Under the pieces are notes generated by a model. That model searched no databases. It was not told the DNA's origin and saw nothing but the letters and a program-made list of their open reading frames with translations. The translations under genes and the position numbers were made by a program. Of a stretch of 64,000 bases of DNA, positions 1,361 to 21,800 are shown one piece after another. Within the stretch, counting starts at the first letter, position 1. Every line of letters starts with the position of its first letter. Origin of the DNA: Eledone cirrhosa (Eukaryota); assembly GCA_964016885.1 (NCBI GenBank), contig OZ024763.1:23064001-23128000 (forward strand), read 5' to 3'.

Positions 1361-1363
<3 letters not shown>
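192..1363 (-). mobile_element. RTE-clade LINE, family A, 5'-truncated copy (ORF2 C-terminus, about 340-bp 3' UTR, (GAT)n tail)
   Basis: ORF 552-1310 encodes CPKCKVWVHKRC...IEIVDSFRYLGD...RRLRWYGHVMRM...GRPRKTW, typical of RTE post-RT sequence. The (ATC)n at 192-212 is the minus-strand tail. The 5' end breaks directly into (TA)n at 1363. Confidence 0.92.
552..1362 (-). pseudogene. RTE ORF2 C-terminal fragment (PHD-like finger plus post-RT region)
   Basis: Open frame from [23 protein letters not shown] to the stop at 552. No true start; 5'-truncated. Confidence 0.88.

Positions 1364-1420
<57 letters not shown>
1364..1420. repeat. (TA)n microsatellite, representative of many (TA)n/(CA)n tracts in 1-18,700
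   Basis: Seen directly. Similar tracts at about 1535, 3422, 3700, 4930-5027, 5224, 5659, 6167, 12836 and 16270. Confidence 0.98.
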
Positions 1421-1424
<4 letters not shown>

Positions 1425-1530
1425 TGCTACTGTACGTCTGTATACATATATGTATGTACGTATACATACTTACATTTAAGTAAGTGCCATACTAAGAGTG
1501 AGAAATGAAATTTCGTTTTCATTTTCTTAC

Positions 1531-1576
<46 letters not shown>

Positions 1577-1984
1577 TCATACATACAGACACACACACAT
1601 ATATATACATATCTGACTCTGTATATGAAAGATTGACTCAGTGAATTATTTGCTAACAGATTACATTGAGTTCTAACTACGGTATAGACCCTACCACGAA
1701 AGGTAGACCACATTGTATATATATATATATGTCTATATATTACACATGGTTAAAAAGCTGTACATATTTCAAAGCTGCTCAGGAGCAACGACTCACCCCA
1801 CCCCCTACGGCAAGCTTAACGTTTGTGAAAGAATATAGGAGCTGGGGCCCTATGAGGGTGGAAAGTGGTTGCCAAGGTTTGTAAAACAGGCGTTCATCCA
1901 GAGTTACCTCCCCTGTACTGTGTTGTCAGTCAATAAATGTTTTCTTATATATATAATAATCATTTCTTTATTAATAAAAAAAAT

Positions 1985-2303
1985 AATAATGAAAATTATT
2001 GTGTACAGCGCTCAGATGCACTACAGCTCATCAAAGGTGCATGTATAGTAGATAGAATAATGTACAAATGTCAGGAAAATGAACAGTGTATGAGTCATGA
2101 TATACACACAGATACATGTGTATAGGAAAATAGTCAGGACCCTGACAGCTGAGCTCTGGCTGTTTCGACAGCTAGATCCGAACAGTGTGTATATATAATA
2201 AAAATTATTGTGTACAGTGCTCAGATGCACTACAACTCATCAAAGGTGTATATATATAGTACATAGAATAATGTAGAAATGTCAGGAAAGTAAACAGTGT
2301 ATG
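1985..2303 (-). mobile_element. Two tandem short 3'-end copies of the CR1-like LINE (about 1985-2140 and 2200-2303)
   Basis: Reverse complement of 4690-4836 (aatgaaaattattgtgtacagcgctcagatgcactacagctcatcaaaggtgcatgtata...). Further stubs at about 2470-2508, 14128-14190 (+) and 18908-18985. Confidence 0.85.
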
Positions 2304-2465
2304 GTTTCTGATTTTAGGCATAAGGGCAACAATTTTCGGCAGGGGAGAGGAAAGTAGATTAAATCGATGACAGTACATTACTGGTACTTTATTTTATCAA
2401 CACCGTGAAGATGAAAGGGAAAGCTAACCTCGACAGGATTTGAACTCAGAACGTAAAAAGACGTA
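2303..2465 (-). mobile_element. tRNA-derived SINE with Nin/Deu-like core, partial
   Basis: actggtactttattttatcaac...gatgaaagggaaagctaacctcgacaggatttgaactcagaac; B box (GAGTTCAAATC) on the minus strand. Homologous to 3072-3232, 16749-16902 and 18640-18862. Confidence 0.75.
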
Positions 2466-2780
2466 TAATAATGAATATTATTGTGTACAGTGGTGAGGTG
2501 CACTACAACACTTCTTTTCCCATAACTCCTGATGTAGTTGTAGGGGCTGCATTGACATACAGCGTTTCTAGGGCATTTAAAAACCTATTGGCACCCATCT
2601 CTCTCCAGGCCTGAGTAAAGGAGATTTCTTCCAGAGAAAGATAGAAAGTGAGAGAGAAAAAATGAGAATCTACCCCAGTACTAGATTGGTTCATTTATAT
2701 ATATATGGAGGGATAGAGAGGAAATGAGAAAGAGATATAGAGGAAGAATCGACCCCAGTACTAGACTGGTACTATATATA

Positions 2781-3020
2781 TCACCACCATCATCATTTTA
2801 CGTCCGCTTTTCCCTGCTCGCAAGGGTGGGACGGGTCCTATTCAGCACAGTATCTCTCCACTTGTCACGGTCCTTCGTCATCTCCTCTGTGAGCTTCAGC
2901 GATCTGAGGTCTGCTCTCACCACCTCCGCCCATATTTTTCATGGTCTTCCTCTACTGTGTCTTCCTTCTACTGGGATTTCTTGGCACTTTTTTACCCAAC
3001 GGTCATCCTCCATGCGCATA
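2781..3020 (-). mobile_element. RTE family B 3' fragment
   Basis: Closely similar to 7245-7472; ends in GCGGACGTAAAA(TGA)n. Confidence 0.9.
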
Positions 3021-3071
3021 ATTTATATGGAGAGATAGAGAGAGGAAATGAGAAAGAGATATAGAGGAAGA

Positions 3072-3232
3072 AGCGACCCCAGTACTAGACTGGTACTTTT
3101 TTTTATCAACCATGAATGGATGAAAAGCAAAGTTGACCTTGAGCAAGATTCGAACTCTAACATCAGAGACCCAGAACTAAAACCCACAAAGCCTTCTATC
3201 TGATGCTCTAACGACTCAGTTAATTCTCTGCC
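3072..3232 (-). mobile_element. tRNA-derived SINE with Nin/Deu-like core
   Basis: cgaccccagtactagactggtact...ggatgaaaagcaaagttgacct...gattcgaactc...ctaacgactc; same family as 18640-18862. Confidence 0.75.
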
Positions 3233-3409
3233 TCTATACATACTTATATAAAACACATGCTTTCCTTCTGTGAAAAAAAATATATTTTTTCCTTTTCTTT
3301 CTTCCCGCTAGTTTATCTTTTTATTTCTTCTTCTCTCACAGTCTTTCTTCCAATGAAAGACTGACATCTGAACTGTTGACACTCCTTTCTACTATATCAA
3401 GCGCTAAAT

Positions 3410-3461
<52 letters not shown>

Positions 3462-3466
<5 letters not shown>

Positions 3467-3519
3467 TCATCATCATTTTACGTCCACTTTTCCCTGCTTG
3501 CAAGGGTGGGACGGGTCTT
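3462..3519 (-). mobile_element. RTE family B extreme 3' stub within (TA)n
   Basis: atcatcatcattttacgtccacttttccctgcttgcaagggtgggacgggtctta. Similar stubs at 4893-4930 (+) and 7028-7108 (+). Confidence 0.88.
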
Positions 3520-3614
3520 ATATATATATATATATATAGGAGGCGGATGCATTTGTGTGTGTATGCATATATATATACATACATATACACACACACACAT
3601 ATATATATATATAT

Positions 3615-3680
3615 ATGTAAATGAAAATTCCTCGTTTTCTATTATATATATATTATGGAAAAACGAGGAAGTTTCATATA
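3615..3680. repeat. Small palindromic (hairpin/MITE-like) element; second copy in opposite orientation at about 10875-10940
   Basis: aattcctcgttttctat-(TA)n-atggaaaaacgaggaagtt; both copies lie next to (TA)n. Confidence 0.75.
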
Positions 3681-3692
3681 TATATGTATATA

Positions 3693-3747
<55 letters not shown>

Positions 3748-3896
3748 TGTAGCGCTTGATATAGTAGAAAGGAGTGTCAACAGTTCAGATGTCAGTCTTT
3801 CATTGGAAGAAAGACTGTGAGAGAAGAAGAAATAAAAAGATAAACTAGCAGGAAGAAAGAAAAGGAAAAAATATATGTATATATATATGTGTGTAT

Positions 3897-4836
3897 GTGT
3901 TCTTGGCCTCCTTTTGTTTGTGGCATATATTAATGACACAGATGCCAACTTAATATCAAGAAGTCTTCTTGTGAACGTGACCTGGGCATTACGGTCTGCA
4001 GCGATTTGCGTTGGACGAAGCACGTCTCTAAAATTGTCAAGAGGGCCGAGGGTGTCTTAGCATCACTCAGCAAGACCTTTGTCAGCCGCTCTCCAGATAT
4101 CTATTTAAGGCTGTATACAGGTATGGTGCGGCCACACTTAGAATTTGCATCACCAGTCTGGAACCCCTATTATTGGAACATTGACCACTTGGAAACTGTT
4201 CAGAGACGTGCAACCAAGCGAATACCCTTCATCAGGCATCTACCATACTCTGAATGCCTTGCTTCCCTGGGCATGGATTCATTGAAGCTCCGACGCCTGG
4301 CAACTGACTTGGTAAACACCCACAAAATTGTTAACCATCTTGCCAATAACAACCCTGAGTACCTTTTTGATTTCCATGTGTCTAACACACGTGGACATGC
4401 CCACAAAGTCAGAAAACAGCACAGTTCCCATGACTTTCGGAAACAATTTTTCACGCTCAGAATTGCTGAAGCATGGAACAAACTACCTGCATCAGTTGTT
4501 AGCTGTCGAGACACTGCATCCTTTAAAACCTCCATGGAACAAATTACCTGCATCAGTTGTTAGCTGTCGAGACACTGCATCCTTTAAAACCTCCATGGAA
4601 CAAATTACCTGCATCAGTTGTTAACTGTCGAGACACTGCATCCTTTAAAACCTCCATGGTTCCCGAGATTCGCCAACACTACACCTAATGTTCCCCCTCC
4701 ATACACATACACACATGTATATCCTGACTCATACACTATTCACTTCCCTGACATTTGTATATTATTCTATGTACTATACATGCACCTTTGACGAGTTGTA
4801 GTGCACCTGAGCACGGTACACAATAATTTCATTATT
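3897..4836 (+). mobile_element. CR1/L2-group LINE 3' fragment with internal deletion, plus 3' UTR
   Basis: VLGLLLFVAYIND (RT motif) is joined across a deletion to ERDLGITV, then LYTGMVRPHLEFASPVWNP...LETVQRRATK...TRGH...RKQFFTLRIAEAWNKLP. The 3' end (caataatttcattatt) is shared with several short copies in the window. Confidence 0.9.
4472..4659 (+). repeat. Three-copy 61-bp tandem repeat within the CR1-like ORF end
   Basis: CATGG recurs at 4472, 4533, 4594 and 4655; the units are near-identical. Confidence 0.95.
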
Positions 4837-4924
4837 TATTTCTTTATATATATATATATGTGTATATAAGTATATACACACACACATATATATGCAAGCA
4901 AAGAAAAGCGGACGTAAAATGATG

Positions 4925-5029
<105 letters not shown>

Positions 5030-5221
5030 GTATTTAAGAAAGCCACAACAATGCAAAGGGAAATCTCGAGGTAGGAAGTGAAATATAGATAGGAAAAACA
5101 GGTGAAAGTGAAAATTGAGAGAGACAAAGATGAAAACAAAACTTTTCGGGCTCACGCCCATCAACGGGGGGAAAACAGGCCAAGCGGAGAAAGTTGTGAT
5201 GTCGTTAAGACAGGAATGCCG

Positions 5222-5273
<52 letters not shown>

Positions 5274-5325
5274 ATATATATATGTATATATGTATATATA
5301 TATATGTATATATGTATATATACAT

Positions 5326-5491
5326 ATCATCATCATTTTACGTCCACTTTTCCCTGCTTGCAAGGGTGGGACGGGAACTGATTCTGGCTTGATTTCTACA
5401 GCTGGATGCCCTTCCTAACACCAACCTCATTTACAGTGAGTGCTGGGTGCTTTTTTGCCGTGGCACCTCCACGACCACTTTGCAGTGGAAT
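5326..5491 (-). mobile_element. Chimeric RTE end: family A-type UTR module joined to a family B 3' terminus
   Basis: 5377-5491 matches 6217-6378 and the UTR in 53120-53528; 5326-5375 matches 7240-7288. Confidence 0.8.
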
Positions 5492-5656
5492 CATAGGGAC
5501 CCCTGTCCCTATCATCTCATTTCTACAGCTGAGTAAACTGGAGCAATGTGAAATAAAGTGTCTTGCTCAAGGAAACAACACATCACCCAGTCTGAGAATT
5601 GAACTCACAACCTTTCGATTGCAAGGCCAATGCTCTAACCACTAAGCCATGTGCCT

Positions 5657-5658
<2 letters not shown>
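5492..5658 (-). mobile_element. tRNA-derived SINE 5' part (A box, B box, CORE-like segment)
   Basis: Minus strand reads GGAGGCACATGGCTTAGTGGTTAGAGC...GAGTTCAATTC...TCCTTGAGCAAGACACTTTATTTCAC. Related fragment at about 12700-12750. Confidence 0.8.
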
Positions 5659-5695
<37 letters not shown>

Positions 5696-6162
5696 TGTAT
5701 ATATATACATATATATATATATATATTTATAATTGGTGTTGGATGCTTAAAGCATCCGTATGTGGTAGGCCGTATGAGCACTCAATGCTCTCATAGAGCA
5801 GAGTATGATATCACAGAAAATCAGCTTTGTAGAATCGAGACGTATCAAGGGACCGCGCGATTTCAGAGTCAGGTTTGATCACCACATCGATCGTGCCTCG
5901 AGCTGGTTGCCCGAGAAACAATTGTAATACGTCCAATAAATTCCTTTCGTCGCAACACTGATTCTCTTTTTTCTGTAATATATATATATCTATATACACA
6001 CACACACATATATATATATGTATCTATACATATATATATATAATGGAAAAATTTGAACAGGAACAAAACAGAGAGGCCGTACAACGAATGTTTATTAATT
6101 TCACGCTCTGGAGAGTGGGGTGTTGGTGGGGAACGACGTTTCGGGCATAAGCCCTTCCTCAG

Positions 6163-6199
<37 letters not shown>

Positions 6200-6216
6200 C
6201 TATACATATAGATATA

Positions 6217-6463
6217 TTCCCACTGCAAAGTGGTCGTGGAGGTGCCATGGCAAAAAAGCACCCAGCCCACACTGTAAAGTGGACATGTAGGCGCCACGGA
6301 AAAAAACACCCAGCACTCACTGTAAATGAGGTTGGTGTTAGGAAGGGCATCCAGCTGTAGAAATCAAGCCAGAATCAGCTGACGGTACACTGCCCACAAC
6401 AGCACAACCCGTCTAACCCATGCTAGTGTGGAAGAATGGACGTAAAACGGTGATGATGATGAT
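6217..6463 (+). mobile_element. RTE family A-type 3' UTR fragment with (GAT)n tail; an inverted tail stub follows at 6472-6514
   Basis: Near-identical to 53256-53528; ends ggacgtaaaacggtgatgatgat. Confidence 0.87.
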
Positions 6464-6471
6464 ATATATAT

Positions 6472-6502
<31 letters not shown>

Positions 6503-6685
6503 CCGTTTTACGTCATATATACATATATACATATATTCAACAAATATTTGTTGAATTACCAACAAATTAAATATCCCTTTTGCTTATATACATATATATA
6601 TATATATATTATATTTAGAGTTATAAACTCAAACAGTCTTTTACAATTAATTAGCTCAAAGAAAGAAGCATTTCTGAGCCGTGAA

Positions 6686-6977
6686 ATACAAGTTAATATA
6701 AATTAATATATGATAAACACTGATGTAAACATATAAGCGTTTGTATTGTAAACGACCAAGTTAGCTAGATTGAAAAATACTAATTAGATTAATACAGTTT
6801 GTCTGCCTCGATTTAAAATAATAAATCAATAACAACAAACCCATATTGGCAATAGCCGTGATACTTGGACAAATTTAAATTTCAAAATCCAAACCTGTTC
6901 CGCAGACAAATTTACAATACAAACGCTTATATGTTTACATTGGTGTTTATCATATATTAATTTATATTAACTTGTAT
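6686..6977. repeat. Inverted repeat pair with 67-bp arms (6686-6752 and 6911-6977), MITE/foldback-like
   Basis: atacaagttaatataaattaatatatgataaacac...ttgtattgtaaa is reverse-complemented with about 2 mismatches. Confidence 0.88.
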
Positions 6978-7108
6978 ATATATATATATATATATACACA
7001 TACACACATATATATATACATATATATGTGGAGAGATGCTGTGCTGAATAAGACCGATCCCTCCCTTGCAAGCAGGGAAGAGCGGACGTAAAATGATGAT
7101 GATGATGA

Positions 7109-7140
<32 letters not shown>

Positions 7141-7227
7141 CATTTACATATATTTATATATATATATATATATATATGTAAATGTATATTGGCAACATAA
7201 CCCTCCCAAAGTATAACAATATATATA

Positions 7228-10200
7228 TCATCATCATCATCATCATCATTTTACGTCCGCTTTTCCCTGCTTGCAAGGGTGGGACGGGTCTTATTCAGCA
7301 CAGCATCTCTCCACTTGTCACGGTCCATCGTCATCTCCACCGTGAGGTTCAATGATCTGAGGTCTGTTCTCACCACCTCCGCCCATGTTTTTCGTGGTCT
7401 ACCTCTACCAGGTCTTCCTTCAACTGGCAATTCCTGGCACTTCTTCACCCATCGGTCATCCTCCATGCGCATCACATGTCCATACCACCTCAGTCTCCTC
7501 TCCCGTACACTACATTCTATCCCTCTCAGACACAGTTTCTCTCTCAACACATTTATGCTGGGTCGTTTACGCACATTGACATTGCACATCCAACGGAGCA
7601 TGCTTGCCTCATTTCTCTCCAGCCGTCGCATATCCTCTGCAGTTGCTGCCCATGTCTCACTACCATGCAGCATCGCGCTCCTCACACAGGCATCATACAA
7701 CCGGCCTTTCGTACGCAGGGGGAAACCCTTCTTCGTCAACAGAGGAAGCAGCTCCCTAAACTTCTTCCAACCCGTCCTTATTCTAGATACTATGGCCTCG
7801 GAACACCCTCCTCCCATGCTAATCTGATCTCCTAGGTACCGGAAGCTATCCACCACTTCTATAGCGCCCTCCTGCATTTGAAAAATGTGTCTATCAATGC
7901 GACTTCTACTGTCTAATTTCCCTGTACATCTACTGCATACATATTTCTCCCTACCTGTTAGTTTGCCTGCTATCCCGCTACATCTCTTGTGTACCCAGGA
8001 TCTGCATTGTGTGCATTTTATAGAATTTATGCCAGTTCCTTTTCTGCATATCGAACATGGCCATTTCCCTGACGGAATCAGAGTTTTGTCCTCTTTTCTA
8101 CTCAACACTTTTGTCTTAGCTAGATTCACTCTGTCCTCTTGCTTCCAACTGCTGTTTCTATAGCCAGAATTTATTCTCTAGCTCCTCTACTGATTCTGCT
8201 ATAAGAACCAGATCGTCAGCGTAGAGAAGTTCCCATGGACAGCCAGTCTTAAACTCCTCTGTTATGGCTTGGAGGACTATAATGAACAAGAGCGGGCTGA
8301 GGACCGAACCCTGATGTACTCCTACTTGTATCTGGAATTCCTCACTAAACTCCATTCCTACCCTGACTTTACTGAGAGTACCTCTGTACAAAGTTTGCAC
8401 TGTCCTCACAAGCCATTCCTCAACACCTAGCTTCCTTAGGGACCACCAGATGACAGATCGGGGTACCCTATCAAAGGCCTTCTCTAGGTCAACAAAGGCT
8501 AAGTATAGTGGCTTATTCTTCTCTAAGAACCTCTCTTGCAATTGTCTCACCAAGAAGAGGGCATCTGTTGTACTCTTCCCAGGCACAAAACCAAACTGCA
8601 TCTCATCTAGTTTGACCCTTTCTCTAATTAGTTGTGCTAAAATCCTTTCTGCCACTTTCATAACCTGATCTATCAGTTTATACCCCTATAATTGCTCCTC
8701 TCCAAAGCATCCCCTTTACCTTTGTAGCAATTTATGAGAATACTGCTGCACCAGTCTTTGGGTATGACACCACCATATATAGCCTGATTGATGATGCGTG
8801 CAACCAGTTTAGTGCCTACGTCCCCTGATGCCTTCAGCATCTCAGCAACTATTCCCGATGGTCCGGCAGCCTTACCATTTTTCATTTCCCTAATCACCTC
8901 TTGGACCCTATATTCGTCAATCTCAATAGCTGGTCCCTCTGTCGGATCCACCAAGGGTAATTTCTCTCTCTCCCATTCGTTCTCCACATTCATCAGTCTC
9001 TCATAATGACATTTCCAGGCCTCCTTTTTCTGATCATTCGTGACACTAAGTACACCGGCATCATCCCGGACACATTTATCTCCAACAACATCCTGATTTG
9101 CATTGACACACTGCCTTGCAATGTGGAACACCGCACGCCTCTGATCTTCCCGTCGCAGAACATTGGCAAACCTCCTACTCTCTGCCTCCCTGCGTGCTAA
9201 GTACACCTGACGTCTAGCTTCTCTCTTAGTGGCTGTATATTCTTCCCTACTCCCACCCTTTTTCCAAGCCTTCCATGCTAGTCTTTTGTCTCTAATAGCC
9301 TTATCTACTGTGCTGTTCCACCACCAGGTCACTCTCTGTCTGGTTGGAGCTCTGCTCCAGCCACAAGTTTCATCAGTAGCCTGCAGCAAGTTGTCACGTA
9401 AGAAATTCCAGTTATTATCTATGTCATATGTCTCTAAATCGTCTTCTTTTTCGTCATATACATCTTGAAGGGCTTTCCTAAATTTGTATTTTAGTGAAAG
9501 GTCTTTTAGCTTCCAGACCTTTCTTCTCCACACCTTCCTATATGTCTCATTCCATCTCTTGCTTACTGAGATATCACTAACAACTAACCTATGCTGTGGG
9601 GTACATTCTTCCCCAGGGTATGCCTTGGTATTAGACACTATCTGCCTGTCCCGCTGCCTCACTAGCAGGAAGTCAATCTGGCTTATGTGCTCACCAGATT
9701 TGTAGGTTATTAGGTGATTGGCAGGTTTCTGGAAGTTTGTGTTGCAAATAGTCAATGTACCCGCATCACAAAATTCAAGAAGTCTCACTCCTTCTTCATT
9801 TCTTGAACCGTAACCGTGCCCACCATGTACCCCAGTGTAACCATCCTGGAGCTGTCCAACATGACCATTGAAGTCTCCTGCTAGCATAACAATGTCTCCG
9901 TCCTCTGTCATTGCGGTTGTTTGCAAAAGTTGCTCATAAAAGCAGTCTTTCTCATCTTTGCCTAGGCCTGCTTGGGGAGCATAGGCCGAGATGATTGTCA
10001 GTAGTCTCCTACCTACAACTAATCTAAGCTTAATTATTCGATTACTAACTCGAACTACCTCTATTGTCTTATTGATCCATTTCTCAGCCAGGAAAATGCC
10101 TACTCCCCCTAATCCATCATCCTTACCTACCCAGAATAGCTTATAGCTAAGATGTTTGCCTACGACTAGTCTCGCAGAGGCACCTCTCCATCACACCTCT

Positions 10201-10520
10201 TGCACGCAGCACACATCCACCTGCCTTCTCTCCAGCATCTCCGCTATTTCAGCAGATCTACTTCTGAGAGTGCCAACATTAAGTGTTGCAACTCTGAGAT
10301 GCGACGTCTTCATATTTTGTTGTTGTTCCTATTTGTTGCTATGCTGATAAGAGTTTTGGCATTGATGCACTGGTTGGATGCACTTCCTAACACCAGCGCC
10401 ACCTTACAGCATAGACTGGGTGCTTTTATTTGTGCCACCAGCACTAGAGAGGATGTCTTACTAGACTCAAGGGCCCTCTCTATCCCTCCATTTTACAGCA
10501 TGGTTGTAAAAAAAATAAAT
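7228..10520 (-). mobile_element. Near full-length RTE-clade LINE, family B; single ORF, disrupted; 5' boundary approximate
   Basis: APE endonuclease motifs (ATLNVGTL, CCVQEV, AGDFNGHVG, SQIDFLL, QHRLV) and RT motifs (QFGFVPG, FVDLEKAFDRV, GVHQGSVLSPLLF, LLYADDL, FRYLG). The (GAT)n tail follows the stop codon almost immediately. Confidence 0.96.
7251..10313 (-). pseudogene. RTE ORF2 (APE endonuclease, reverse transcriptase, PHD-like finger), about 1,020 codons, disrupted
   Basis: ATG at 10313 (MKTSHLRVATLNVG). In-frame TGA at 10191-10193 (likely CGA>TGA), frameshift near 8676 (NYRGI/KLIDQVMK), TAG at 8158-8160 (likely TGG>TAG) and frameshift near 8133 before RVNLAKTKVL. Confidence 0.93.
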
Positions 10521-11070
10521 AAATAAAAAAAATAAAAAACTTAAAGACACGACGCACACACAAGCACTCATGCATACAAACCACAACCACACACACGCCA
10601 CTCACATACCAACACTCATTCATGCATACAATCACACACACCACTCACAAACACACATATATATACATATATTACCGACAGTACTGATACAAATACAAAA
10701 TCAAAATCAAAATCATCAAAATCAAAATCAATATTATGTCAACTGTTGACCTTTCCCAGTCCAGTTCAGCTTGTATATAATAACAATATTAATAATAATT
10801 GTTTGCTTTACGCTGGTAATGGCGTTGATATATATATAGATAGATATATATACATATATACATTTACATATATATATGAAACTTCCTCATTTTTCCATTA
10901 TATATATATAATAGAAAACGAGGAAGTTCCATTTACATATAAAAAATATTTATTGCGTATCGACCAGTTACGCACATTTCATGTATTTACACTCTGCCTG
11001 TGCATAGAGTGCTTGATTTGGTACTAACACCAGTATTTCATGATACTACCTACAATATATATATATATAT

Positions 11071-11183
11071 ATAGAAATGACTTCTACAGGACTAGAACTG
11101 TTTCATCCAGGAGAAATCATTGGGGCTTTCCTGATGATTTCTCCCGAATGAAACACTTCTAGTCCTGTAGAAGCCATTTCTAT
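11071..11183. repeat. Imperfect 113-bp palindrome containing CTGATGA...GAAAC
   Basis: atagaaatgacttctacaggactagaa...ttctagtcctgtagaagccatttctat. Confidence 0.85.
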
Positions 11184-11284
11184 ATTAAATATTTATACTA
11201 TGCTATGTATTGAGTACCTTACTTACTGTGGTTACCCCTGATTGAACCCGGGATAAACTTATATATATATATATGTATATATAT

Positions 11285-11338
11285 GCCCCAGCATGGCCTC
11301 AGCCAGATGGCTGAAACAGGTAAAAGAGTAAAAGAGTA
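11285..11338 (+). mobile_element. Probable SINE/retroposon 3' tail fragment
   Basis: gccccagcatggcctcagccagatggctgaaacaggtaaaagagtaaaaga: a small hairpin and short repeated tail, embedded in (TA)n. Confidence 0.5.
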
Positions 11339-11404
11339 TATATATATATATATATATATATCATTATACCAACAGCTTATTTTTTATAAGCAGACAGTAT
11401 TATT

Positions 11405-12620
11405 GATTTAGGTGTTGCAGAAACCCAATTTCGGAGTATTCCATCTTCCCCGAGGGTCCGGGTAAATATTTCAATCATATCTCATTTTGTTTGACCCGTT
11501 TAGCTTGTTCGCTTTTTTTGCTTTGGTGGTTAATGGCTTCTTAACCATCGTCTCAGCGTGTATGACCATTTTAACTTATGTTTATAGCTCTGGTATCTTC
11601 TTCATATCCATGGAGCACTTGTCTGCACAATATGGAAGTTGCGTTTCGCTAATTTCTACCCGCCGAAATGGGATTCTCGCTAAATATATTTATATATATG
11701 TATACACACACACACACACACAAATATATATATATATATATAATAAAATGTTGTAGTTTGTTCGAAGCATTGTATATAATATAAAACATTAAAAGAGATA
11801 GATGGCTAAACACTGCAAAATGGACTGTAAGATGAGGTAACGAAATATATATATTATATATTACTTGCCAACTTATAGAAGTCATGTCTGAGAAAATCAC
11901 AGACCTGCACCATACCACCTCTAGCCGAAGCTCAAAGATTCTAAGGAGTAAATCCGAGCATTTATTAAAAATTAAAGATCAGTTGACGTATATATAAAAA
12001 AAAACATATCAAGTATTGACAGGGGATAATTTATATATACATATATAGAAGTCTTATATATTTTTATGTGGGCTGATAGTGAACGGATTAAGGAATTGCA
12101 GAAACCCAAGAAGCTAGATTTAACACCCTTCTAGCGGGTCCGGGTAAGTTTTTTACATTCATTTAAATTATTGATTTATTGATATTTTATTTGAGTGACC
12201 CGAATCTTCCTGGTCGTTCTTTTTTCGGCTGTGCGGGTGATTTTAGGCATAATCTCTATGTGTTGGTAATTTAACGATAGTTATAGCTCTGATTTATCCA
12301 AATTATTGAGCCCTCTGCCACTCATATCGGATGTTGTTTATCGTTAATTCGTGAGCTGATTTTCCGATACTCGATTATTCTATTACATATATATATATAT
12401 ATTCCTTTTATTAAGGCTAAATAGTGAGTCTTGTTACTGTGGAGTTTCACCTGTTTATTGCTGGGTTCATCAGACATCAACCATATACGGATATATATAT
12501 ATCAGAGTGTTGTAGTTTGCTTGAAGCATTGTTGAATAGGAAATATAAATTAAATAATTTTGAAAACCATACAATGCATTAGAAAATTAAAGGTGCTAAG
12601 ATAACAATAGAATCTTACCT
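11405..12620. repeat. Two diverged copies of an unidentified composite repeat (about 11405-11850 and 12085-12620)
   Basis: Shared blocks in the same order: ttgcagaaacccaa, gggtccgggtaa, tgacccg, ttatagctctg, tgttgtagtttg..gaagcattgt. Confidence 0.7.
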
Positions 12621-12832
12621 TAGCAAATATAATACCCATTATCAATGGGTGTATCCTTGTGAGGGTCTTAAAGGATCATTCGGAGATGAATTGTTAGGGC
12701 GATGTGTTATGTCCTTGGGCAAGACACTTTATTTCACGTTGTTCCGTCTAACTGGGGTTGCGACTATTAGAAGGCATTAGCTATTGGAAAGACCAACAGA
12801 AACATTGTTTCTTGGTCTGATTTGATGAAAGT

Positions 12833-12876
<44 letters not shown>

Positions 12877-13735
12877 ATATATATCATCCTCGTTTAAGGT
12901 TCATATTCCTACGCTAACATGGGTTAGACCAGTTGCCCTGTTGGGAGACAAGTCAGGTGTCTGATGCTCTACCGATACTGCCAATCCATCGCCCTCATAA
13001 CAACACATGTTTTAAGGGCATTCTGAGACCAATCAACCCCAAAACTGCATTTGTTCCTATTTAAAAAAACAAAAAAAAAACAGTTTAACGGGTTCCTATT
13101 GAAATTGAAACTTTTAAAAATAATTTTATTCAAAAACATTTAATGTTTCAAATAGCATCTAAAGAGTTTTAATATTAACCTGGTTTTATGAAACAAAACC
13201 ACCCATTTAAAAAAAGTTCTCAAAAATAATTTATTATGAGAATATTTTGATAAATTATTGGCTAAATCCTACACTATATGGAATTTTTTTGTGATAGTGT
13301 TATACGGCTGGCTGCTTTTCCTGGCGCCAACCCTGTTAGTCATCCATTCTCCACCATATACACCGAACAGATCATGTTTGTAAGAAGTAGAAAGCATTAT
13401 TAGACAGAGATATTTACACAATATTCCTATCAATACATTTTTTCTACAATACATATATGTCTATTCATATTATGAAATATTTGTCCAACCGTTATGTATT
13501 GGGAAGTTTATATGTCTTTTGTGAGATGACTTCCTCAGAGACTGTGAACTGAGGAAAAGTTGGGGGAAAAATGCTAAAGATAAGAAAATATAGATAAATA
13601 AAAGACACAGTTATGGCTGTGTAATTAATTATGTATTGTAACCAAGGTGCCACAGAGAGGGACAGAACCCAGAGCTATGTGGTTACGATATAAATACCTT
13701 AACCAACACACCTGCACGTATACGGAAACATAGCA

Positions 13736-14030
13736 ATCATCATCACCACCACCATCATCACTGTTTAACGTCTATTTTCCATGACACATCTGTTAGACAG
13801 GCTGTCACGTACTGAGGCTAGACAAGTTAGGTGACTATAAACCACAGAGTGTACAGGGAGCATTTTTACAGGGAGACTATACAGAGTGTACAGGGAGAAT
13901 TTTTATCTTGACTTCAGGGCTGCCCCCGTATGGAGTAGACTGGGTGCTTTTTGTTGTGGCATCAACACCACCACCTTACAGAGTGGACTGGGTACTTTTA
14001 ATCATGGCATCAGCACTACATACAGGGGTG
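13736..14030 (-). mobile_element. Old degraded RTE family A-like 3' end; a similar stub lies at 12881-12930
   Basis: catcatcactgtttaacgtctattttccatg...gttagac, and the repeated gactgggtgctttttgttgtggcatc module. Confidence 0.6.
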
Positions 14031-14493
14031 CTTGGTATGTCCATGATCTGGCTTGGAAGGCACTGACAGGCATAAAGAAATGAAAAGGGTGCAGTCTATA
14101 TGTTGTTTGCTAGGAGTGGGGATGGGAGACATGCACCTTTAATGAGTTGTAGTGCACCTGAGCACTGTACATAATAATTTTCATTATTATACCATTTTCT
14201 ATCCATTAACTCCTTAAAACCCCTAAAACATAGCTGTTTACTTTTAAATGTTTTACCTTTATATGAAAACATACCATCATCATTTTCTGTAAGAACCTTT
14301 GTTAAGTTATGCTCCAAACACTGACTGCTTACAATTTTCGAATAATTCTGAAAATAATCAAGAATTTGAATGAATTTAGTAATATAGCTAACTTTCACAT
14401 TATCAAGCTAGTGTTTGGAACATAACTTAACAAAGGTTCTTACATAAAATTATGGTAGAAGGTTTTTTTTTTAGATAAATATAAACACTTTAA

Positions 14494-15043
14494 CCCTTTA
14501 GCATTTACTAAGAGAGAAACTGTATAGAATGGAGTGATAGAATGTAGTGTACGGGAGAGGAGACTGAGGTGGTATGGACATGTGATGCGCATGGAGGATG
14601 ACCGATGGGTGAAGAAGTGCCAGGAATTGCCAGTTGAAGGAAGACGTGGTAGAGGTAGACCACGAAATACATGGGCGGAGGTGGTGAGAACAGACCTCAG
14701 ATCATTGAACCTCACGGTGGAGATGACGAAGGACCGTGACAAGTGGAGAGATGCTGTGCTGAATAAGACCCGTCCCACCCTTGCAAGCAGGGAAAAGCGG
14801 ACGTAAAATGATGATGATGATGATGATGATGATTACTCTATATATACTATTGTGTTTTTACGGTAAACACTTTATTTTCGGTAAACACTTTATCTCGCAT
14901 AATATTGAATCTATAATAGTTTGATATTATTTATTTTGAGAACAATACCTTAACATCAGTATAAGTGGCTGGTTACAGCCAGTTTGAACTAAAAGCAGGT
15001 GAAAGAATTCTGGCTGGATATGGCTGGTTTAAATGCTAAAGGG
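14494..15043. mobile_element. piggyBac-like MITE (14-bp TIR CCCTTTAGCATTTA, TTAA target duplication)
   Basis: TTAA(14490-93)-CCCTTTAGCATTTA ... TAAATGCTAAAGGG-TTAA(15044-47). Neighbouring tandem units show the empty site aaacactTTAAaataaataa. Confidence 0.9.
14510..14832 (+). mobile_element. RTE family B 3' fragment nested in the MITE
   Basis: ORF 14534-14806 is nearly identical to the C-terminus of 7251-8129; (GAT)n tail. Confidence 0.93.
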
Positions 15044-16140
15044 TTAAAATAAATAACTTAGTATCATAGAACCAGAAATAGTTTCAAGCAGTTTGGTATA
15101 AAAATAGTTAAGCTGGTGATTGGAACATAACTTAACGAAGGTTCTTACATAAAATTGTGGTGGAAGGTTCTTTTGAGATACATATATAAACACTTTAAAA
15201 TAAATAATTTAAAGCAGTTTGGTATGAAAATAGTTAAGCTGGTGATTGGAACATAACTTAACAAAGGTTCTTACATAAAATTGTGGTAGAAGTTTAAAAA
15301 AATAAATAAATATAAACACTTTAGAATAAATAATTTAAAGCAGTTTTGTACAAAATAGTTAAGTTGGCGATTGGAACATAACTTAACAACGGTTCTTACA
15401 TAAAATTATGGTGGATTTTTTTTTTTTCTTTAGATAAATATAAACACTTTAAAATAAATAACTTAGTATCATAGAACGAAAAGTAGTTTCAAGCAGTTTG
15501 GTATGAAAATAGTTAACTTGGTGATTGGGACATAACTTAACAAAGGTTCTTACATAAAATTATGGTGGAAGTTTTTTTTTTTTTAGATAAATATAAACAC
15601 TTTAAAATAAATAACTTAGTATCATAGAACCAAAAGTAGTTTCGAGCAGTTTCATATCGAAATAGTTAAGCTGGTAATTGGGACATAACTAAACAAAGGT
15701 TCTTACATAAAATTGTGATGAAAGGGTTGTTTTTTTCTGAGAAATATATCAACATTTTCAAAAGAAAAGCTTCAAATAATAGTAGTTTGGTATCAAAGGG
15801 TTAAAGAATTATTTCTTACAACACAATATACAGAGCAATAAATCTTGAATTTTTATCTCTGGTCCCTATTAAACTAGAAAGCAGAATATTCATAAACCTA
15901 ATTTCTCACACTCATAAATAGTCAGTTTTATACTGGTTTTAGGTGAAGGCCAAAACAGAACACATCATCTCACACCATCAAAGTGTGAACCAAAAATACA
16001 CTGAGTTGTCTATACCAGTTTAACAGAACACCACGCATTACGAAACACACACATATATACATATATATAGACACACATATATGTATATATATATATATAT
16101 ATATAATATAAGATCAAAAGATGGTTAAAGGAGTTCCATG

Positions 16141-16211
16141 TATTTTATTATGCGCATTTCAAAAACAAACATCATCATGCAATAATATTTGTGTTTTCAT
16201 CAGATAAAACA
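16141..16211 (-). ncRNA. Type I hammerhead ribozyme candidate
   Basis: Minus strand: TGTTTTAT-CTGATGA-[16-bp stem II with one mismatch]-GAAA-TGCGCA-TA-ATAAAATA. Stem I closes, stem III is palindromic (ATGCGCAT), and the cleavage triplet is AUA. Confidence 0.75.
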
Positions 16212-16264
16212 GGAGAACATGATATGAAGGCTAAAAAACACTTGTGGATAGTGCAGTTTTAAAT

Positions 16265-16298
<34 letters not shown>

Positions 16299-16482
16299 AA
16301 AGTATGTGCTCCTACATGTAAATAATACACATAAAGATACAAGTATAGTCCAACCGTATGCAACTGTGGTTCAATGGCAAGTTAATAAATTAACAAGCCA
16401 GAGCATATAAAATCAAGGGAAAGCAAATAAAGAAAAATTTTTAAAAATAAATTTAAAAAAATTCACTGTACTTACTATACGT

Positions 16483-16564
16483 GCCTTTACTGCGGTTTCA
16501 GATCCCAAAACAAATAGATAATCCAGGCGGATTTCCATTGAGAAAGAAATCCTCGTCAGAAGGC
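16483..16564 (-). ncRNA. Type I hammerhead ribozyme candidate (inverted partner of 17110-17180)
   Basis: Minus strand: GCCTT-CTGACGA-GGAT...GATCT-GAAA-CCGCAG-TA-AAGGC. Confidence 0.72.
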
Positions 16565-16748
16565 TTTTCTCTCTCACAGAATATAAGATTCTCAAGTTCA
16601 AAATACAAACTGACGCCATACAAAACTGCCCCAACAAATGAATGATGAAACAATTTTGCACCGTGTACAAAGACAGTCGGACTATACTTGTATCCCTATG
16701 TGTATTATTTACATGTAGGAACATATACTTTTATTATTATTCTCCCCA

Positions 16749-16902
16749 GGGCGGTGGATTGGCAGTATCAGTAGAGGGTCGGACGCCATGCTTTGACGCA
16801 AAGAGTTACGTCCCTTTACGATCTGAGTTCAAATCCCGCTGAGGTTAAAAGTACCAGTAATGTACTGGGTAATTGCTGGCCTTGTGCCAAAAGTAGAAAC
16901 AA
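16749..16902 (+). mobile_element. Internally deleted tRNA-derived SINE with 16-bp target-site duplication
   Basis: A-box-like TGGCAGTATCAG, B box GAGTTCAAATCC, 3' end ggccttgtgccaaa. ATTATTATTCTCCCCA flanks it at 16733-16748 and 16902-16917. Confidence 0.85.
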
Positions 16903-17109
16903 TTATTATTCTCCCCAACGGTAGAGAAACCTTTGGTCATTTGACCGGCTGCTGTTTTTAGTAGCGAGAGATTGACCTCTCCACCTTGCTTTCAGTCTTT
17001 GTACACGGTACTAGACAAAATTGTTTCATTATTCATTTGTTGGGGCAGTTTTGTATGGCGCCAGTTTGTATTTTGAACTCGGGAATCTTATATTCTCCGA
17101 GAGAGAAAA

Positions 17110-17180
17110 GCCTTCTGACGAGGATCTCTTTCTCGCCTGGATTATCTATTTGTTTTGGGATCTGAAACCGCGGTAAAGGC
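17110..17180 (+). ncRNA. Type I hammerhead ribozyme candidate
   Basis: GCCTT-CTGACGA-GGATCTC...GGGATCT-GAAA-CCGCGG-TA-AAGGC: 5-bp stem I, 7-bp stem II with G.U pairs, palindromic ACCGCGGT stem III, GUA cleavage triplet at 17173-17175. Confidence 0.8.
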
Positions 17181-17302
17181 ACATATAGTAAGTACAGTGA
17201 ATTTCTTGAAATTTATTTTAAAATTTTTTCTTTATTTGCTTTCCCTTGATTTTATATATATATATATATATGTGTGTATATATATATATACATATATATA
17301 TA

Positions 17303-18330
17303 TATGTGTGGCCGGTGCTCAGGTGCAATAAGTAGTAGCAAGTGCCTACAGGATACTAGCTTCTTCCATTGTCCAGATGGTTCTATAGAAATAGTGGACA
17401 CCTTCCGTTACCTGGGTGACAAAATCAGCAGTGGTGGAGGGTGCTCTGAAAGTACAGTAGCTAGAGTCAGAACGGGATGGAAAAAGTTCAGAGAGCTTAT
17501 ACCACTATTGGCCACTAAAGGTTTCTCCCTAAAAATAAAAGGCAGACTGTATGAACAGCAATGTTACATGGCAGTGAGACTTGGGCATTGTGTGCAGAGG
17601 ATCTATGCAGACTGGAGAGGAACGAAGCTTGCATGCTCTGTTGGATGTGTAATAGTAATATACGTGAATGGCAAAGCATAAATGAACTAAGTGAGAAATT
17701 AGGAATAAGAGGGATCAGATGCTGTTTACTCGAGAGAAGACTACGTTGGTATGGTCACGTGATGCGCATGAAAGATGACAGCTGTATAAAAAAATGCAGG
17801 GCGATCAAAATAGATGGAAGTTACGGAGTAGGCAGACCCAGAAAAACCTGGGACGATTTGATAAATTCAGACCTTACACACTTACACCTCTCCAAGACAA
17901 TGTCACTGGACCGAGATCTTTGGTGCTATGCAGTAATACAGAAGACCCGCCTTACCTAAGTACAAAGCGAAACCTAGTCAGCAGGCACCTCTTAACCAAA
18001 AATACACACCTACCCCCACCCCCATCTACACCACCCCTTTCTCTGTAAAGTTATGTTGGTGCTACAACATCCAGTCCTAAATAAATGAGATCGTGTAGGT
18101 GTCACGACAAAAAAACACACAGTCCACGCTGTAATGTGGCCGTGTAGGTAACACGGTAAAAGCCTCCCAGTCTGTAAACGTGGTTAGTGTTAGGAAGGGC
18201 ATCCAGCCGTAGTAAACCTGCCAGACAGTCCTATATGAGCAAGACAACCAATCCTGCCTCACGTGGGACAATTCCCGTCTAAACCCATGCTAGCGTGGAA
18301 GATAGACGTTAAACGATGATGATGATGATG
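17303..18330 (+). mobile_element. RTE family A 5'-truncated copy, frameshifted near 17553
   Basis: ORFs 17274-17681 and 17561-17959 align to 552-1310; 3' UTR and (GAT)n tail present; starts out of (TA)n. Confidence 0.92.
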
Positions 18331-18344
18331 TGTGTATATATATA

Positions 18345-18622
18345 TATGAGATAATTAAATCGAGATCTTGTAGGTGTCACGACGAAAAAACACACAGTCC
18401 ACGCTGTGATGTGGCCGTGTAGGTAACACGGTAAAAAGTTCCCAGTTCCACACTGTAAATGTGGTTGGTGTTAGGAAGGGCATCCAGCCATAGAAAACCT
18501 GCCAGATAGTCCTATATGAGCGAGACATGGTCACCTGACCAACCTTGCCTCAAGTGGGACAACTCCTGTCTAACCCATGCTAGCGTGGAAGATGGACGTT
18601 AAACGAAGATGATGATGATGAT
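18345..18622 (+). mobile_element. Second RTE family A 3' UTR fragment in tandem
   Basis: Diverged copy of 18080-18330 with its own (GAT)n tail. Confidence 0.88.
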
Positions 18623-18639
18623 ACATATATATATATAAT

Positions 18640-18862
18640 GGTTTCTTATATAGGCACAAGGCCAACAATTTTGGGGGAGGGGAAAGTCGATTAAATCGAC
18701 TCCAGTGCGTGACTGGTACTTTATTTTATCAACCCCGTAAGGATGAAAAGCAAAGTTAACCTCAGTAGGATTTGAACTCAGAACCTAAAAGGCAGAGCAT
18801 CAGACAACTTGCCACAAAGCATGTTGTCTGATGCTCTAGCAATTCTACTGCCAATCCACATC
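18640..18862 (-). mobile_element. Near full-length tRNA-derived SINE with Nin/Deu-like core
   Basis: ggcacaaggccaacaattttggg...gtcgattaaatcgactccagtg...ctggtactttattttatc...ggatgaaaagcaaagt...gatttgaactcagaac...attctactgccaatcc. Confidence 0.8.
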
Positions 18863-21800
18863 ACTAATATTAGGTTAATAATGAAAAAGTTAGTTATATA
18901 TCTAAATAATAATAATGAAATTATTGTGTACAGTGCTCAGGTGCACTACAACTCATCAGAGGTGCATGTATAGTACATAGAATAACAAAGGTTCTTACAT
19001 AAAATTTTGAAGGAAGTTTATTTCAAATAGCTTTCAAGAATTTGGAGGGATTTAGTAAAATAAATAACATTATTAAGCTGGTGTTTGGAACATGGTAACA
19101 GACAGAAGCCTGACCTGACCAGACAAGCTCTGGTTCTATGAAATATAACACACATAACCCTATCAGTGAAATTATAACACACATAACCCTATCAGTGAAG
19201 CCCTTTAGTATAGGTCAACTGGGAAATTATAACACACATAACCCTATCAGTGAAGCCCTTTAGTATAGATCAACTGGGAAATTATAACACACATAACCCT
19301 ATCAGTGAAATTATAACACACATAACCCTATCAGTGAAGCCCTTTAGTATAGATCAACTGGGAAATTATAACACACATAACCCTATCAGTGAAGCCCTTT
19401 AGTATAGGTCAACTGGGAAATTACAACACACATAAGCCTATCAGTGAAGTCCTTTAGGATAGGTCAACTGGGAAATTACAACACACATAACCCTATCAGT
19501 GAAGCCCTTTAGTATAGGTCAACTGGGAAATTATAACACACATAACCCCATCAATGACGCCCTTTAGTATAGGTCAACTGGGAAATTATAACATACATAA
19601 CCCTATCAGTGAAGCCCTTTAGTATAGATGAACTGGGAAATTATAACACACATAACCCTATCAGTGGAGCCTTTAGTATAGGTCAACTGGGAAATTATAA
19701 CACACATAACCCTATCAGTGAAGTCCTTTAGTATAGGTCAACTGGGAAATTATAACACACATAACCCTATCAGTGAAGCCCTTTAGTATAGGTCAACTGG
19801 GAAATTATAACACACATAACCCTATCAGTGAAGCCGTTTAGTATAGGTCAACTGGGAAATTATAACACACATAACCCTATCAGTGAAGCCCTTTAGTATA
19901 GGTCAACTGGGAAATTATAACACACATAACCCTATCAGTGAAGCCCTTTAGTATAGGTCAACAGGGAAATTATAACACACATAACCCTATCAGTGAAGCC
20001 CTTTAATATAGGTCAACTGGGAAATTATAACACACATAACCCTATCAGAAAAGCCCTTTAGTATAGGTCAAATGGGAAATTATAACACATAACCCTATCA
20101 GTGAAGCCCTTTAGTATAGGTCAACTGGGAAATTATAACACACATAACCCTATCAGTGAAGCCCTTTAGTATAGGTCAACTGGGAAATTATAACATACAT
20201 AACCCTATCAGTAAAGCCCTTTAGTATAGGTCAACTGGGAAATTATAACACATAACCCTATCAGTAAAGCCCTTTAGTATAGGTCAACTAGGAAATTATA
20301 ACACACATAACCCCATCAGTGAAGCCCTTCAGTATAGGTCAACTGGGAAATTATAACACACATAACCCCATCAGTGAAGCCCTTTAGTATAGGTGAACTG
20401 GAAAATTATAACACACATAACCCCATCAGTGAAGCCCTTTAGTATAGGTCAACTGGGAAATTATAACATACATAACCCCATCAGTGAAGCCCTTTAGTAT
20501 AGGTCAACTGGGAAATTATAACATACATAACCCCATCATTGAAGCCCTTTAGTATAGGTCAACTGGGAAATTATAATATACATAACCCCATCAGTGAAGC
20601 CCTTTAGTATAGGTCAACTGGGAAATTCTAACACATATAACCCCATCAGTGAAGCCCTTTAGTATAGGTCCACTGGGAAATTATAACACACATGACCCTA
20701 TCAGTGAAGCCCTTTAGTATAGGTCAACTGGGAAATTATAACACACATAACCCCATCAGTGAAGCCCTTTAGTATAGGTCAACTGGGAAATTATAACACA
20801 CAACCCTATCAGTAAAGCCCTTTAGTATAGGTCAACTGGGAAATTATAACACACATAACCCTATCAGTGAAGCCCTTTAGTATAGGTCAACTGGGAAATT
20901 ATAACATACATAAACCCATCAGTGAAGCCCTTTAGGATAGGTCAACTGGGAAATTATAACATACATAACCCTATCAGTAAAGCCCTTTAGTATAGGTCAA
21001 CTGGGAAATTATAACATACATAACCCCATCAGTGAAGCCCTTTAGTATAGGTCAACTGGGAAATTATAACATACATAACCCTATCAGTGAAGCCCTTTAG
21101 TATAGGTCAACTGGGAAATTATAACACACAACCCTATCAGTAAAGCCCTTTAGTATAGGTCAACTGGGAAATTATAACACACATAACCCTATCAGTGAAG
21201 CCCTTTAGTATAGGTCAACTGGGAAATTATAACACACATAACCCCATCAGTGAAGCCCTTTAGTATAGGTCAACTGGGAAATTATAACATACATAACCCT
21301 ATCAGTGAAGCCCTTTAGTATAGGTCAACTGGGAAATTACAACATACATAACCCCATCAGTGAAGCCCTTTAGTATAGGTCAACTGGGAAATTATAACAC
21401 ACATAACCCCATCAGTGAAGCCCTTTAGTATAGGTCAACTGGGAAATTATAACACACATAACCCCATCAGTGAAGCCCTTTAGTATAGGTCAACTGGGAA
21501 ATTATAACACACATAACCCCATCAGTGAAGCCCTTTAGTATAGGTCAACTGGGAAATTATAACACACATAACCCCATCAGTGAAGCACTTTAGTATAGGT
21601 CAACTGGGAAATTATAACATACATAACCCTATCAGTAAAGCCCTTTAGTATAGGTCAACTGGGAAATTATAACATACATAACCCTATCAGTGAAGCCCTT
21701 TAATATAGGTCAACTGGGAAATTATAACACACATAACCCTATCAGAAAAGCCCTTTAGTATAGGTCAACTGGGAAATTATAACACATAACCCTATCAGTG

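What the first reader, a model, noticed from the sequence alone, without database searches (positions are those of the whole stretch)
16293..17258. Divergently oriented twin hammerheads in a 265-bp inverted repeat
Seen: a complete hammerhead on the plus strand (17110-17180, GUA site, ACCGCGGT stem III) and its partner on the minus strand (16483-16564). Stem I and both cores are unchanged, while an indel of about 11 bp falls in the stem II loop. A second inverted pair interlocks with this one, and a SINE with a clean TSD sits in the spacer. With the other candidates, at least five unrelated hammerhead-type sequences occur within about 12 kb with no RT/GIY-YIG ORF. Established: Penelope-like elements carry hammerheads in pseudo-LTRs and often leave inverted partial copies. 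Inference: a diverse population of TA-associated ribozyme elements, in which either strand's transcript carries a ribozyme that competes with a long dsRNA fold.
Basis: partly seen in the sequence, partly recalled or inferred. Interest (0 to 1): 0.75.

Follow-up and report, generated by a model that had tools for sequence, protein, structure and literature searches.

The report
Back-to-back hammerhead retrozyme with Penelope ends
The two mirror-image ribozyme motifs are the two arms of one decayed insertion of a 473-base non-coding repeat, and its many copies end at two fixed sites, one per arm, which suggests that a Penelope-type jumping-gene enzyme likely copied the RNA from both sides of a DNA break.

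Summary
Both hammerheads are real, but they are not a designed twin switch. Window 16293-17257 is one insertion of a 473-nt type I hammerhead repeat (non-LTR retrozyme): two arms joined 5'-to-5', both running out into (TA)n, with a later SINE. The 'second inverted pair' is the same monomer, and the 11-nt indel is a private deletion. Across 99 inverted insertions, 84 have one arm ending at site A and the other at site B, 111 nt further on; A/A and B/B occur once each. A 75%-identical sister family (18 of 21) and an RT/GIY-YIG Penelope-like family in this genome (9 of 10) do the same. This is the published Penelope 'tail' signature. The catalytic core is conserved across copies (2.3% versus 9.1% substitutions). 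Arms of this family pass the cut site without stopping; in the sister family 9 of 63 arms start there (1.3 expected). No linked ORF and no A-to-G excess were found; expression is untested. The scan has reported this system before on other DNA of this genome. New member of a known kind, with useful mechanistic statistics.

The parts
16293..16674 (-). Minus arm, monomer positions 282 to 473 then 1 to 193; 3' end at site B, running into (TA)n at 16270-16292
16483..16564 (-). Type I hammerhead, family-length loop II; private G>A breaks the stem III palindrome; cut predicted after 16488
16673..16674 (.). 5'-to-5' junction of the two arms, 2-nt overlap
16673..16748 (+). Plus arm, first part, monomer 129-204; ends in the left copy of the SINE target duplication (16733-16748)
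16749..16901 (+). SINE, later insertion, 16-bp target duplication, internally deleted relative to other copies; tRNA-type A/B boxes judged from recall (ARAGORN finds no tRNA gene)
16902..17257 (+). Plus arm, second part, monomer 189 to 473 then 1 to 82; 3' end at site A, running into (TA)n from 17258
17110..17180 (+). Type I hammerhead with palindromic stem III (ACCGCGGT), G.U at 10.1-11.1, private 11-nt deletion in loop II after 17133; cut predicted after 17175
16358..16400 (-). Conserved stem-loop just 3' of site A (about monomer 88-118), shared with the sister family; candidate protein-binding signal (inferred)

Best explanation
This is one decaying insertion of a 473-nt non-coding hammerhead repeat (a non-LTR retrozyme) whose two arms are joined 5'-to-5' and end at two fixed sites, likely because a Penelope-like RT/GIY-YIG protein copied the RNA from both sides of a break in a (TA)n tract. 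Shown from sequence: tandem monomer, conserved core and covarying stems, fixed 3' ends A (about 82) and B (about 193) used one per arm, random 5' ends joined mostly by 1-5 nt overlaps, read-through of the cut site. Inferred: a source locus with two or more monomers is transcribed; the ribozyme cuts, probably as a dimer through its palindromic stem III; the template for this family is continuous across the cut site (a ligated circle or an uncut multimer); a protein dimer nicks both strands, one end primes at A and the other at B on the same RNA; the two cDNA ends are joined. The SINE came later. The window copy has one ribozyme per strand and would be a dead end.
For: Monomer of 473 nt from cut site to cut site in a tandem copy. 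178 unique loci of 222 examined: 100 joined 5'-to-5', 76 single, 2 three-part, 0 joined 3'-to-3'. 84 of 99 independent inverted events are A/B, 1 A/A, 1 B/B, 13 with another end; binomial p about 1e-22 on 84 of 86. Sister family, 75% identical: 18 of 21 A/B, none A/A or B/B (counted by eye). RT+GIY-YIG family of L131: 9 of 10 inverted loci with both ends in view have one short and one about 40-nt tailed end. 89 of 120 3' ends run into (TA)3+. Core 23 of 992 substitutions versus 1892 of 20710 elsewhere in 99 loci picked only by 3'-junction patterns, p about 0.001; 0 of 12 core sites versus 76 of 333 others carry a lineage variant. Compensatory pairs: stem II.2 G-C 129 / A-U 25 of 166; stem I.5 and a different palindromic stem III in the sister family. 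Arms of one locus share 44% of non-majority variants versus 9% between loci. Two internal RT start sites, cutting of both strands and a predicted dimer are published for an anole Penelope-like protein (PMC11167929).
Against: No ORF is linked to the monomer: no match in 50 GIY-YIG loci, and 12 of 228 element loci have a Penelope protein hit nearby at inconsistent places, so the driver is unidentified. The A-B distance (111 nt) is well above the published 30-40 nt tail. The 10.1-11.1 pair is G.U (80), U.U (57) or A.G (12) of 166, rarely G-C (4), and the isolated motifs fold no better than shuffles (z 0.2 and -1.4), so cleavage may be weak. Shared variants between arms could reflect subfamily age or gene conversion, not one molecule. 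No target duplication can be read inside (TA)n.
Confidence: 0.85

Rival explanations
1. The monomer is simply the terminal repeat (pLTR) of an autonomous Penelope-like element whose ORF-bearing copies were not sampled; the loci seen are 5'-truncated pieces.
For: The end signature is the same as in an ORF-bearing family here; Xenopus retrozymes match pLTRs (10.64898/2026.07.22.740005).
Against: Arms continue upstream into another monomer, not an ORF: 26 of 183 arms exceed one monomer, up to 933 nt; the sister locus L321 has about ten monomers in one arm; no consistent ORF neighbour in 228 loci.
Confidence: 0.07
2. Same element and enzyme, but each arm is copied from a separate RNA molecule (possibly paired through the palindromic stem III), or from linear, partly cut multimers, not a circle. 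This is a rival only to the template step.
For: Arms overlap freely and 5' ends show no pile-up at the partner's priming site. In the sister family 9 of 63 arms begin within 482-4 of the cut site, 1.3 expected, p about 1e-5, as a cut linear 5' end would give; three of them first cross an earlier junction. One locus joins an arm directly to a Penelope ORF fragment (L028/L341).
Against: Two independent RNAs do not by themselves explain 84 of 86 A/B. In the 473-nt family 113 of 115 arms reaching the cut site pass it, with 4 ends at 470-3 against 3.9 expected. Tandem repeats inside one arm diverge as much as the two arms do (7.6% versus 7.5%), as expected if all were identical at birth. The L341 Penelope piece is degenerate (83% to L131, 3' end replaced).
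Confidence: 0.35
3. The inversion forms by fold-back self-priming, as proposed for rotifer Penelope elements (PMC3846280), or by later recombination between neighbouring copies.
For: Published palindromes at inverted junctions; a few mirror junctions occur here (L175, L049).
Against: Junctions are not mirror-enriched: 11 of 99 within 20 nt against 9.4 by permutation, p 0.35. Recombination between independent copies would give A/A and B/B pairs and 3'-to-3' joins; seen 1, 1 and 0.
Confidence: 0.04
4. One reading: a selected twin-ribozyme device in which either strand's transcript balances self-cleavage against a long dsRNA fold.
For: Both cores intact; the full element is predicted to form the long duplex on either strand (about -500 kcal/mol).
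Against: The layout is the family default; both motifs carry private damage; arms have diverged 5%; no A>G excess in copies (142 versus 240 T>C, rate ratio 0.93, p 0.5); the locus lies among repeats beside a 45-kb satellite.
Confidence: 0.03

Closest known systems
Metazoan non-LTR retrozymes (Cervera and de la Pena 2020, PMC7229834: passages and parts 3-4 of 6 read; Li, Clavereau and Pollet 2026, 10.64898/2026.07.22.740005: parts 1-3 of 5 read)
   Same: Non-coding tandem monomer with one type I hammerhead, short palindromic stem III, low GC, co-occurrence with Penelope-like elements; a U.U at the base of stem II is described for axolotl HHR_Amex2.
   Different: 473 nt (170-400 nt in the 2020 paper; 51-972 bp in the 2026 preprint); long branched loop II; mostly dispersed, two-armed inverted insertions of under two monomers. 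The parts read describe no inverted arms or fixed paired ends. Cleavage and circles are untested here.
EN+ Penelope-like elements (Craig et al. 2021, PMC8557442: passages; Arkhipova et al. 2013, PMC3846280: passages; Frangieh et al. 2024, PMC11167929: parts 1-2 of 4; Cervera and de la Pena 2014, PMC4209133: passages)
   Same: Inverted 5'-truncated copy at the 5' end, a 'tail' at only one end, microsatellite targets, hammerhead near the 3' end, uncut RNA as main substrate in vitro.
   Different: No RT or GIY-YIG ORF; tail of 111 nt, not 30-40; priming sites are U/A-rich with a few bases matching (TA)n, whereas the anole enzyme starts in an AC-rich stem-loop without homology.
LINE-1 twin priming
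   Same: Two target ends prime on the retroelement RNA and leave an inversion joined by microhomology.
   Different: In L1 the second site is variable and the two pieces do not overlap; here both sites are fixed and arms overlap by hundreds of bases.

Membership tests
Type I hammerhead ribozyme | Core CUGANGA, GAAA, NUH with stems I-III | tested here: met
   Both window copies; 128 of 166 complete family copies keep the core. Rfam models give no hit.
Type I hammerhead ribozyme | Core conserved and stems covarying across copies | tested here: met
   2.3% versus 9.1%; compensatory II.2 and I.5 (one search has only 7 hand-picked rows).
Type I hammerhead ribozyme | G10.1-C11.1 pair at base of stem II | tested here: not met
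   G.U 80, U.U 57, A.G 12, G-C 4 of 166. G-C in the sister array L321; a U.U variant with weak activity is published (PMC7229834), so this marks a variant, not exclusion.
Type I hammerhead ribozyme | Self-cleavage | not testable with these tools
   Indirect only: 5' ends pile up at the cut site in the sister family, not in this one.
Non-LTR retrozyme | Tandem non-coding monomer with one hammerhead per unit | tested here: met
   473-nt period; 13 arms carry two complete hammerheads. The window copy itself has one per strand.
Non-LTR retrozyme | No protein-coding ORF of its own | tested here: met
   No frame of 120 aa or more inside 16293-17257; no consistent Penelope protein hit.
Non-LTR retrozyme | Expressed as monomeric circular RNA | not testable with these tools
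   Circular monomers fold better than 40 shuffles (z -3.8 for both families), which is not evidence of expression.
Penelope-mobilised element | Inverted 5'-truncated copy joined at the 5' end | tested here: met
   100 of 178 loci.
Penelope-mobilised element | Two fixed 3' ends, tail at one end only | tested here: met
   84 of 99; 18 of 21; control ORF-bearing family 9 of 10.
Penelope-mobilised element | Homology to the pLTR of an autonomous partner | tested here: inconclusive
   None in 50 GIY-YIG loci or 30 L131-family loci beyond L360, a small sample of 10,596 candidates.
Autonomous Penelope-like element | RT plus GIY-YIG ORF | tested here: not met

The most novel reading that the evidence does not exclude
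A dimeric Penelope-like enzyme grips one small ribozyme RNA circle, primes it at two fixed sites from the two ends of a (TA)n break, and both reverse transcriptases roll round the same template, giving a strict one-A-one-B, 5'-to-5' insertion. The arm starts at the cut site in the sister family would be a genomic fossil of hammerhead cleavage in the germ line, present where the G10.1-C11.1 pair is kept and absent where it is lost.
Probability: 0.45. Interest if true: 0.65.

Novelty: new member of a known kind. Interest (0 to 1): 0.42.

Why it matters
The window locus itself is an ordinary decayed copy. The family matters because it gives numbers for open steps: how Penelope-like elements make their inverted copies and one-ended tails (named as unresolved in PMC8557442), and whether retrozymes are moved by Penelope enzymes from circles (proposed in PMC7229834 and the 2026 preprint). 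The one-A-one-B rule across about 100 events argues for coordinated priming of both target ends and against fold-back self-priming, and it names a short RNA, two priming sites and a target for an in vitro test. I found no paper on cephalopod retrozymes or on this pairing rule in searches; the library lacks most subscription papers and supplements were not read.

Tried and rejected
Rfam scan: no hammerhead family at E<=1. Expression: no RNA holder listed; contigs of three runs of unknown kind from one sample covered the monomer, showed variant hammerheads and deep shared blocks, and cannot show ends or circles. Driver search: monomer against 50 GIY-YIG loci, none; 8 Penelope protein frames against 228 element loci, 12 hits at about the background expected; L028/L341 looked like a retrozyme-Penelope chimera but the Penelope piece is degenerate, so it was left as inconclusive. 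SINE hitch-hiking inside a master copy: about a dozen loci have a SINE at the same site, but with differing 5' junctions and duplication lengths, and the same SINE targets ATTATT-type sites elsewhere, so independent insertions are favoured; L061 and L062 share a junction. Editing scars: none. L1-style collision of the two cDNAs: no pile-up at A or B. Fold-back junctions: not enriched. DNA search with the 16105-16270 element returned nothing although a pattern finds 15,737 hits. One search used a structure string off by one column and was redone. Rows dropped: 44 duplicate loci of 222, one duplicated event (L282), interrupted arms and arms with other ends, L293 and L316 in the sister set, three L131-family inversions whose partner ran off the locus.

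Full report
Observation. Each has a 5-bp stem I, an intact core, a 7-bp stem II with a long loop and a short stem III. A strict scan of window 1-19000 returns these two and one unrelated motif at 16203(-), against 0.04 per simulated sequence. Rfam does not detect them, and the isolated motifs fold no better than shuffles.

What the locus is. A search of the own genome (G000, 3.0 Gb) gave many 89-95% identical copies; an exact 22-mer occurs 92 times. A tandem copy defines a 473-nt monomer, numbered from the predicted cut site. On this map the window holds a minus arm (16674-16293; monomer 282 through 473 to 193) and a plus arm (16673-17257; 129 through 473 to 82) joined 5'-to-5' with a 2-nt overlap, both running into (TA)n. 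A SINE with a 16-bp duplication interrupts the plus arm. Both 'interlocked' inverted pairs are overlaps of these two arms. The 11-nt gap is a deletion in the plus copy that removes one strand of a family hairpin in loop II; the minus copy has lost the stem III palindrome.

Family architecture. Of 222 loci examined, 178 were unique: 100 two-armed 5'-to-5', 76 single, 2 three-part, none 3'-to-3'. 3' ends fall at site A (about 82) or site B (about 193). Of 99 independent inverted events 84 are A/B, 1 A/A, 1 B/B and 13 have another end. Loci were chosen by queries that fix one end at most, so the partner's end is free; the 0.5 null is approximate. Junctions overlap by at least 1 nt in 59 of 99, are blunt in 12 and have inserted or unaligned bases in 28; they are not mirror images (11 of 99 within 20 nt, 9.4 expected). 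Arms of one locus share 44% of their non-majority variants, against 9% for arms of other loci. A conserved block just 3' of site A occurs 1,119 times as an exact pattern and led to a 485-nt sister family, 75% identical, with 18 of 21 inverted loci A/B and none A/A or B/B; one young locus (L321) has about ten monomers in the B arm, eight of the nine complete units identical, and 1.9 in the A arm. As a control, an RT plus GIY-YIG family of this genome (L131) shows one short and one about 40-nt tailed end in 9 of 10 inverted loci with both ends in view.

Ribozyme. In 99 loci first found by 3'-junction patterns that do not touch the motif, the 12 core positions carry 23 of 992 substitutions against 1892 of 20710 elsewhere (p about 0.001), and no core site has a lineage-level variant (0 of 12 versus 76 of 333). 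Stem II.2 covaries (G-C 129, A-U 25 of 166), and the sister family swaps stem I.5 and keeps a palindromic stem III of different length, the form described as working in dimers (PMC4209133, passages). Against full activity: the 10.1-11.1 pair is mostly G.U or U.U. A U.U variant in axolotl cleaves weakly as a monomer and better as a dimer (PMC7229834), and only one of nine Xenopus elements cleaved in vitro (methods, results).

Template. In this family 113 of 115 arms that reach the cut site pass it, with no pile-up (4 ends at 470-3, 3.9 expected; a broad 450-25 window is mildly raised, 38 versus 27.5, p 0.03), and 26 of 183 arms exceed one monomer. Repeats within an arm diverge 7.6%, the two arms 7.5%. 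This fits a circle or an uncut multimer of identical units. In the sister family, which has G10.1-C11.1 in L321, 9 of 63 arms begin at 482-4 (1.3 expected, p about 1e-5). I noticed this before testing it, and the sample is small. It points to cut linear templates, or to a stall at a ligation scar, in at least part of the events. So the circle is likely for some events but not shown.

Mechanism and comparison. An anole Penelope-like protein cuts and extends both strands of AT-rich DNA, is predicted to be a dimer, starts at two internal RNA sites that define the genomic tail, and uses uncut RNA (PMC11167929). Inverted 5' copies, a tail at one end only and (TA)n bias are described for Penelope-like elements (PMC8557442; PMC3846280). 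The data here match these features and add that the two sites are used one per arm almost without exception. They do not fit fold-back self-priming. The driver was not identified. Membership: non-LTR retrozyme by structure, with cleavage and circles untested; not an autonomous element.

Twin ribozymes on opposite strands occur at 29 of 124 loci with a complete motif and follow from arm length. The window element would fold into a long duplex if transcribed, but there is no evidence of function, no A-to-G excess in the family, and each strand has a single motif. The neighbourhood is a repeat dump beside a 55-bp satellite of about 45 kb, with other hammerhead-type repeat ends: 16203(-) belongs to a family with 15,737 exact pattern hits; 6162, 11131 and 12473 are incomplete. 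A broken LINE with RT lies at 7251-10190.

Earlier notes. After I had stated my reading, the scan's index returned reports of the same two-armed, two-site system for 310-, 422-, 467- and 478-nt units in this genome; nothing was listed near this locus or by sequence. They are unchecked and not counted as support. One prompted the editing test and made me look again at cut-site starts.

Verdict. Real feature, new member of a known kind; the locus is ordinary, the family statistics are of specialist interest. Interest 0.42.

Noticed in passing
window 16105-16270 (-): Single arm of another hammerhead family (palindromic stem III ATGCGCAT), 15,737 exact pattern hits; no tandem monomers in 20 loci, many short 5'-to-5' pairs about 240 nt apart with one short and one tailed end, and some pairs kilobases apart.
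   Followed up: partly
window 11061-11250: Small inverted element with CTGATGA...GAAAC core; common repeat (68 BLAST pieces in 391 loci); many copies start at the same base just before the core, leaving no stem I.
   Followed up: partly
window 6040-6165 (-) and 12395-12495 (-): Repeat ends between (TA)n tracts with hammerhead cores and incomplete stem I; the first has a minimal stem III and an extra A before stem II.
   Followed up: partly
window 7251-10190 (-); fragments at 552-1469, 14440-14832, 17310-17960: Broken LINE with AP-endonuclease-like, RT and PHD-like parts, ending in (CAT/GAT)n; RTE-like by recall.
   Followed up: partly
window 19307-63999: 55-bp satellite, about 800 units, with local higher-order variants near its edge; a 126/153-bp tandem repeat at 15076-15748.
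   Followed up: no
window 16733-16917; L062-L072: The same SINE family has hit monomer position 189 (ATTATT tract next to site B) in about a dozen copies, apparently independently.
   Followed up: yes
L321:1028-6849: Very young sister-family insertion with about ten near-identical monomers in one arm and 1.9 in the other; best substrate for bench tests.
   Followed up: partly
L341:2793-6187 and L360:78-2028: Retrozyme sequence joined directly to pieces of the L131 Penelope-like family; possible chimeras, not resolved.
   Followed up: partly
L124, L125, L128 (3' untranslated regions): Penelope-like ORFs with a CxxxxCxxC linker followed by a type I hammerhead with palindromic stem III and U.U at the base of stem II; other ORF families sampled showed no canonical core within 650 nt.
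   Followed up: no
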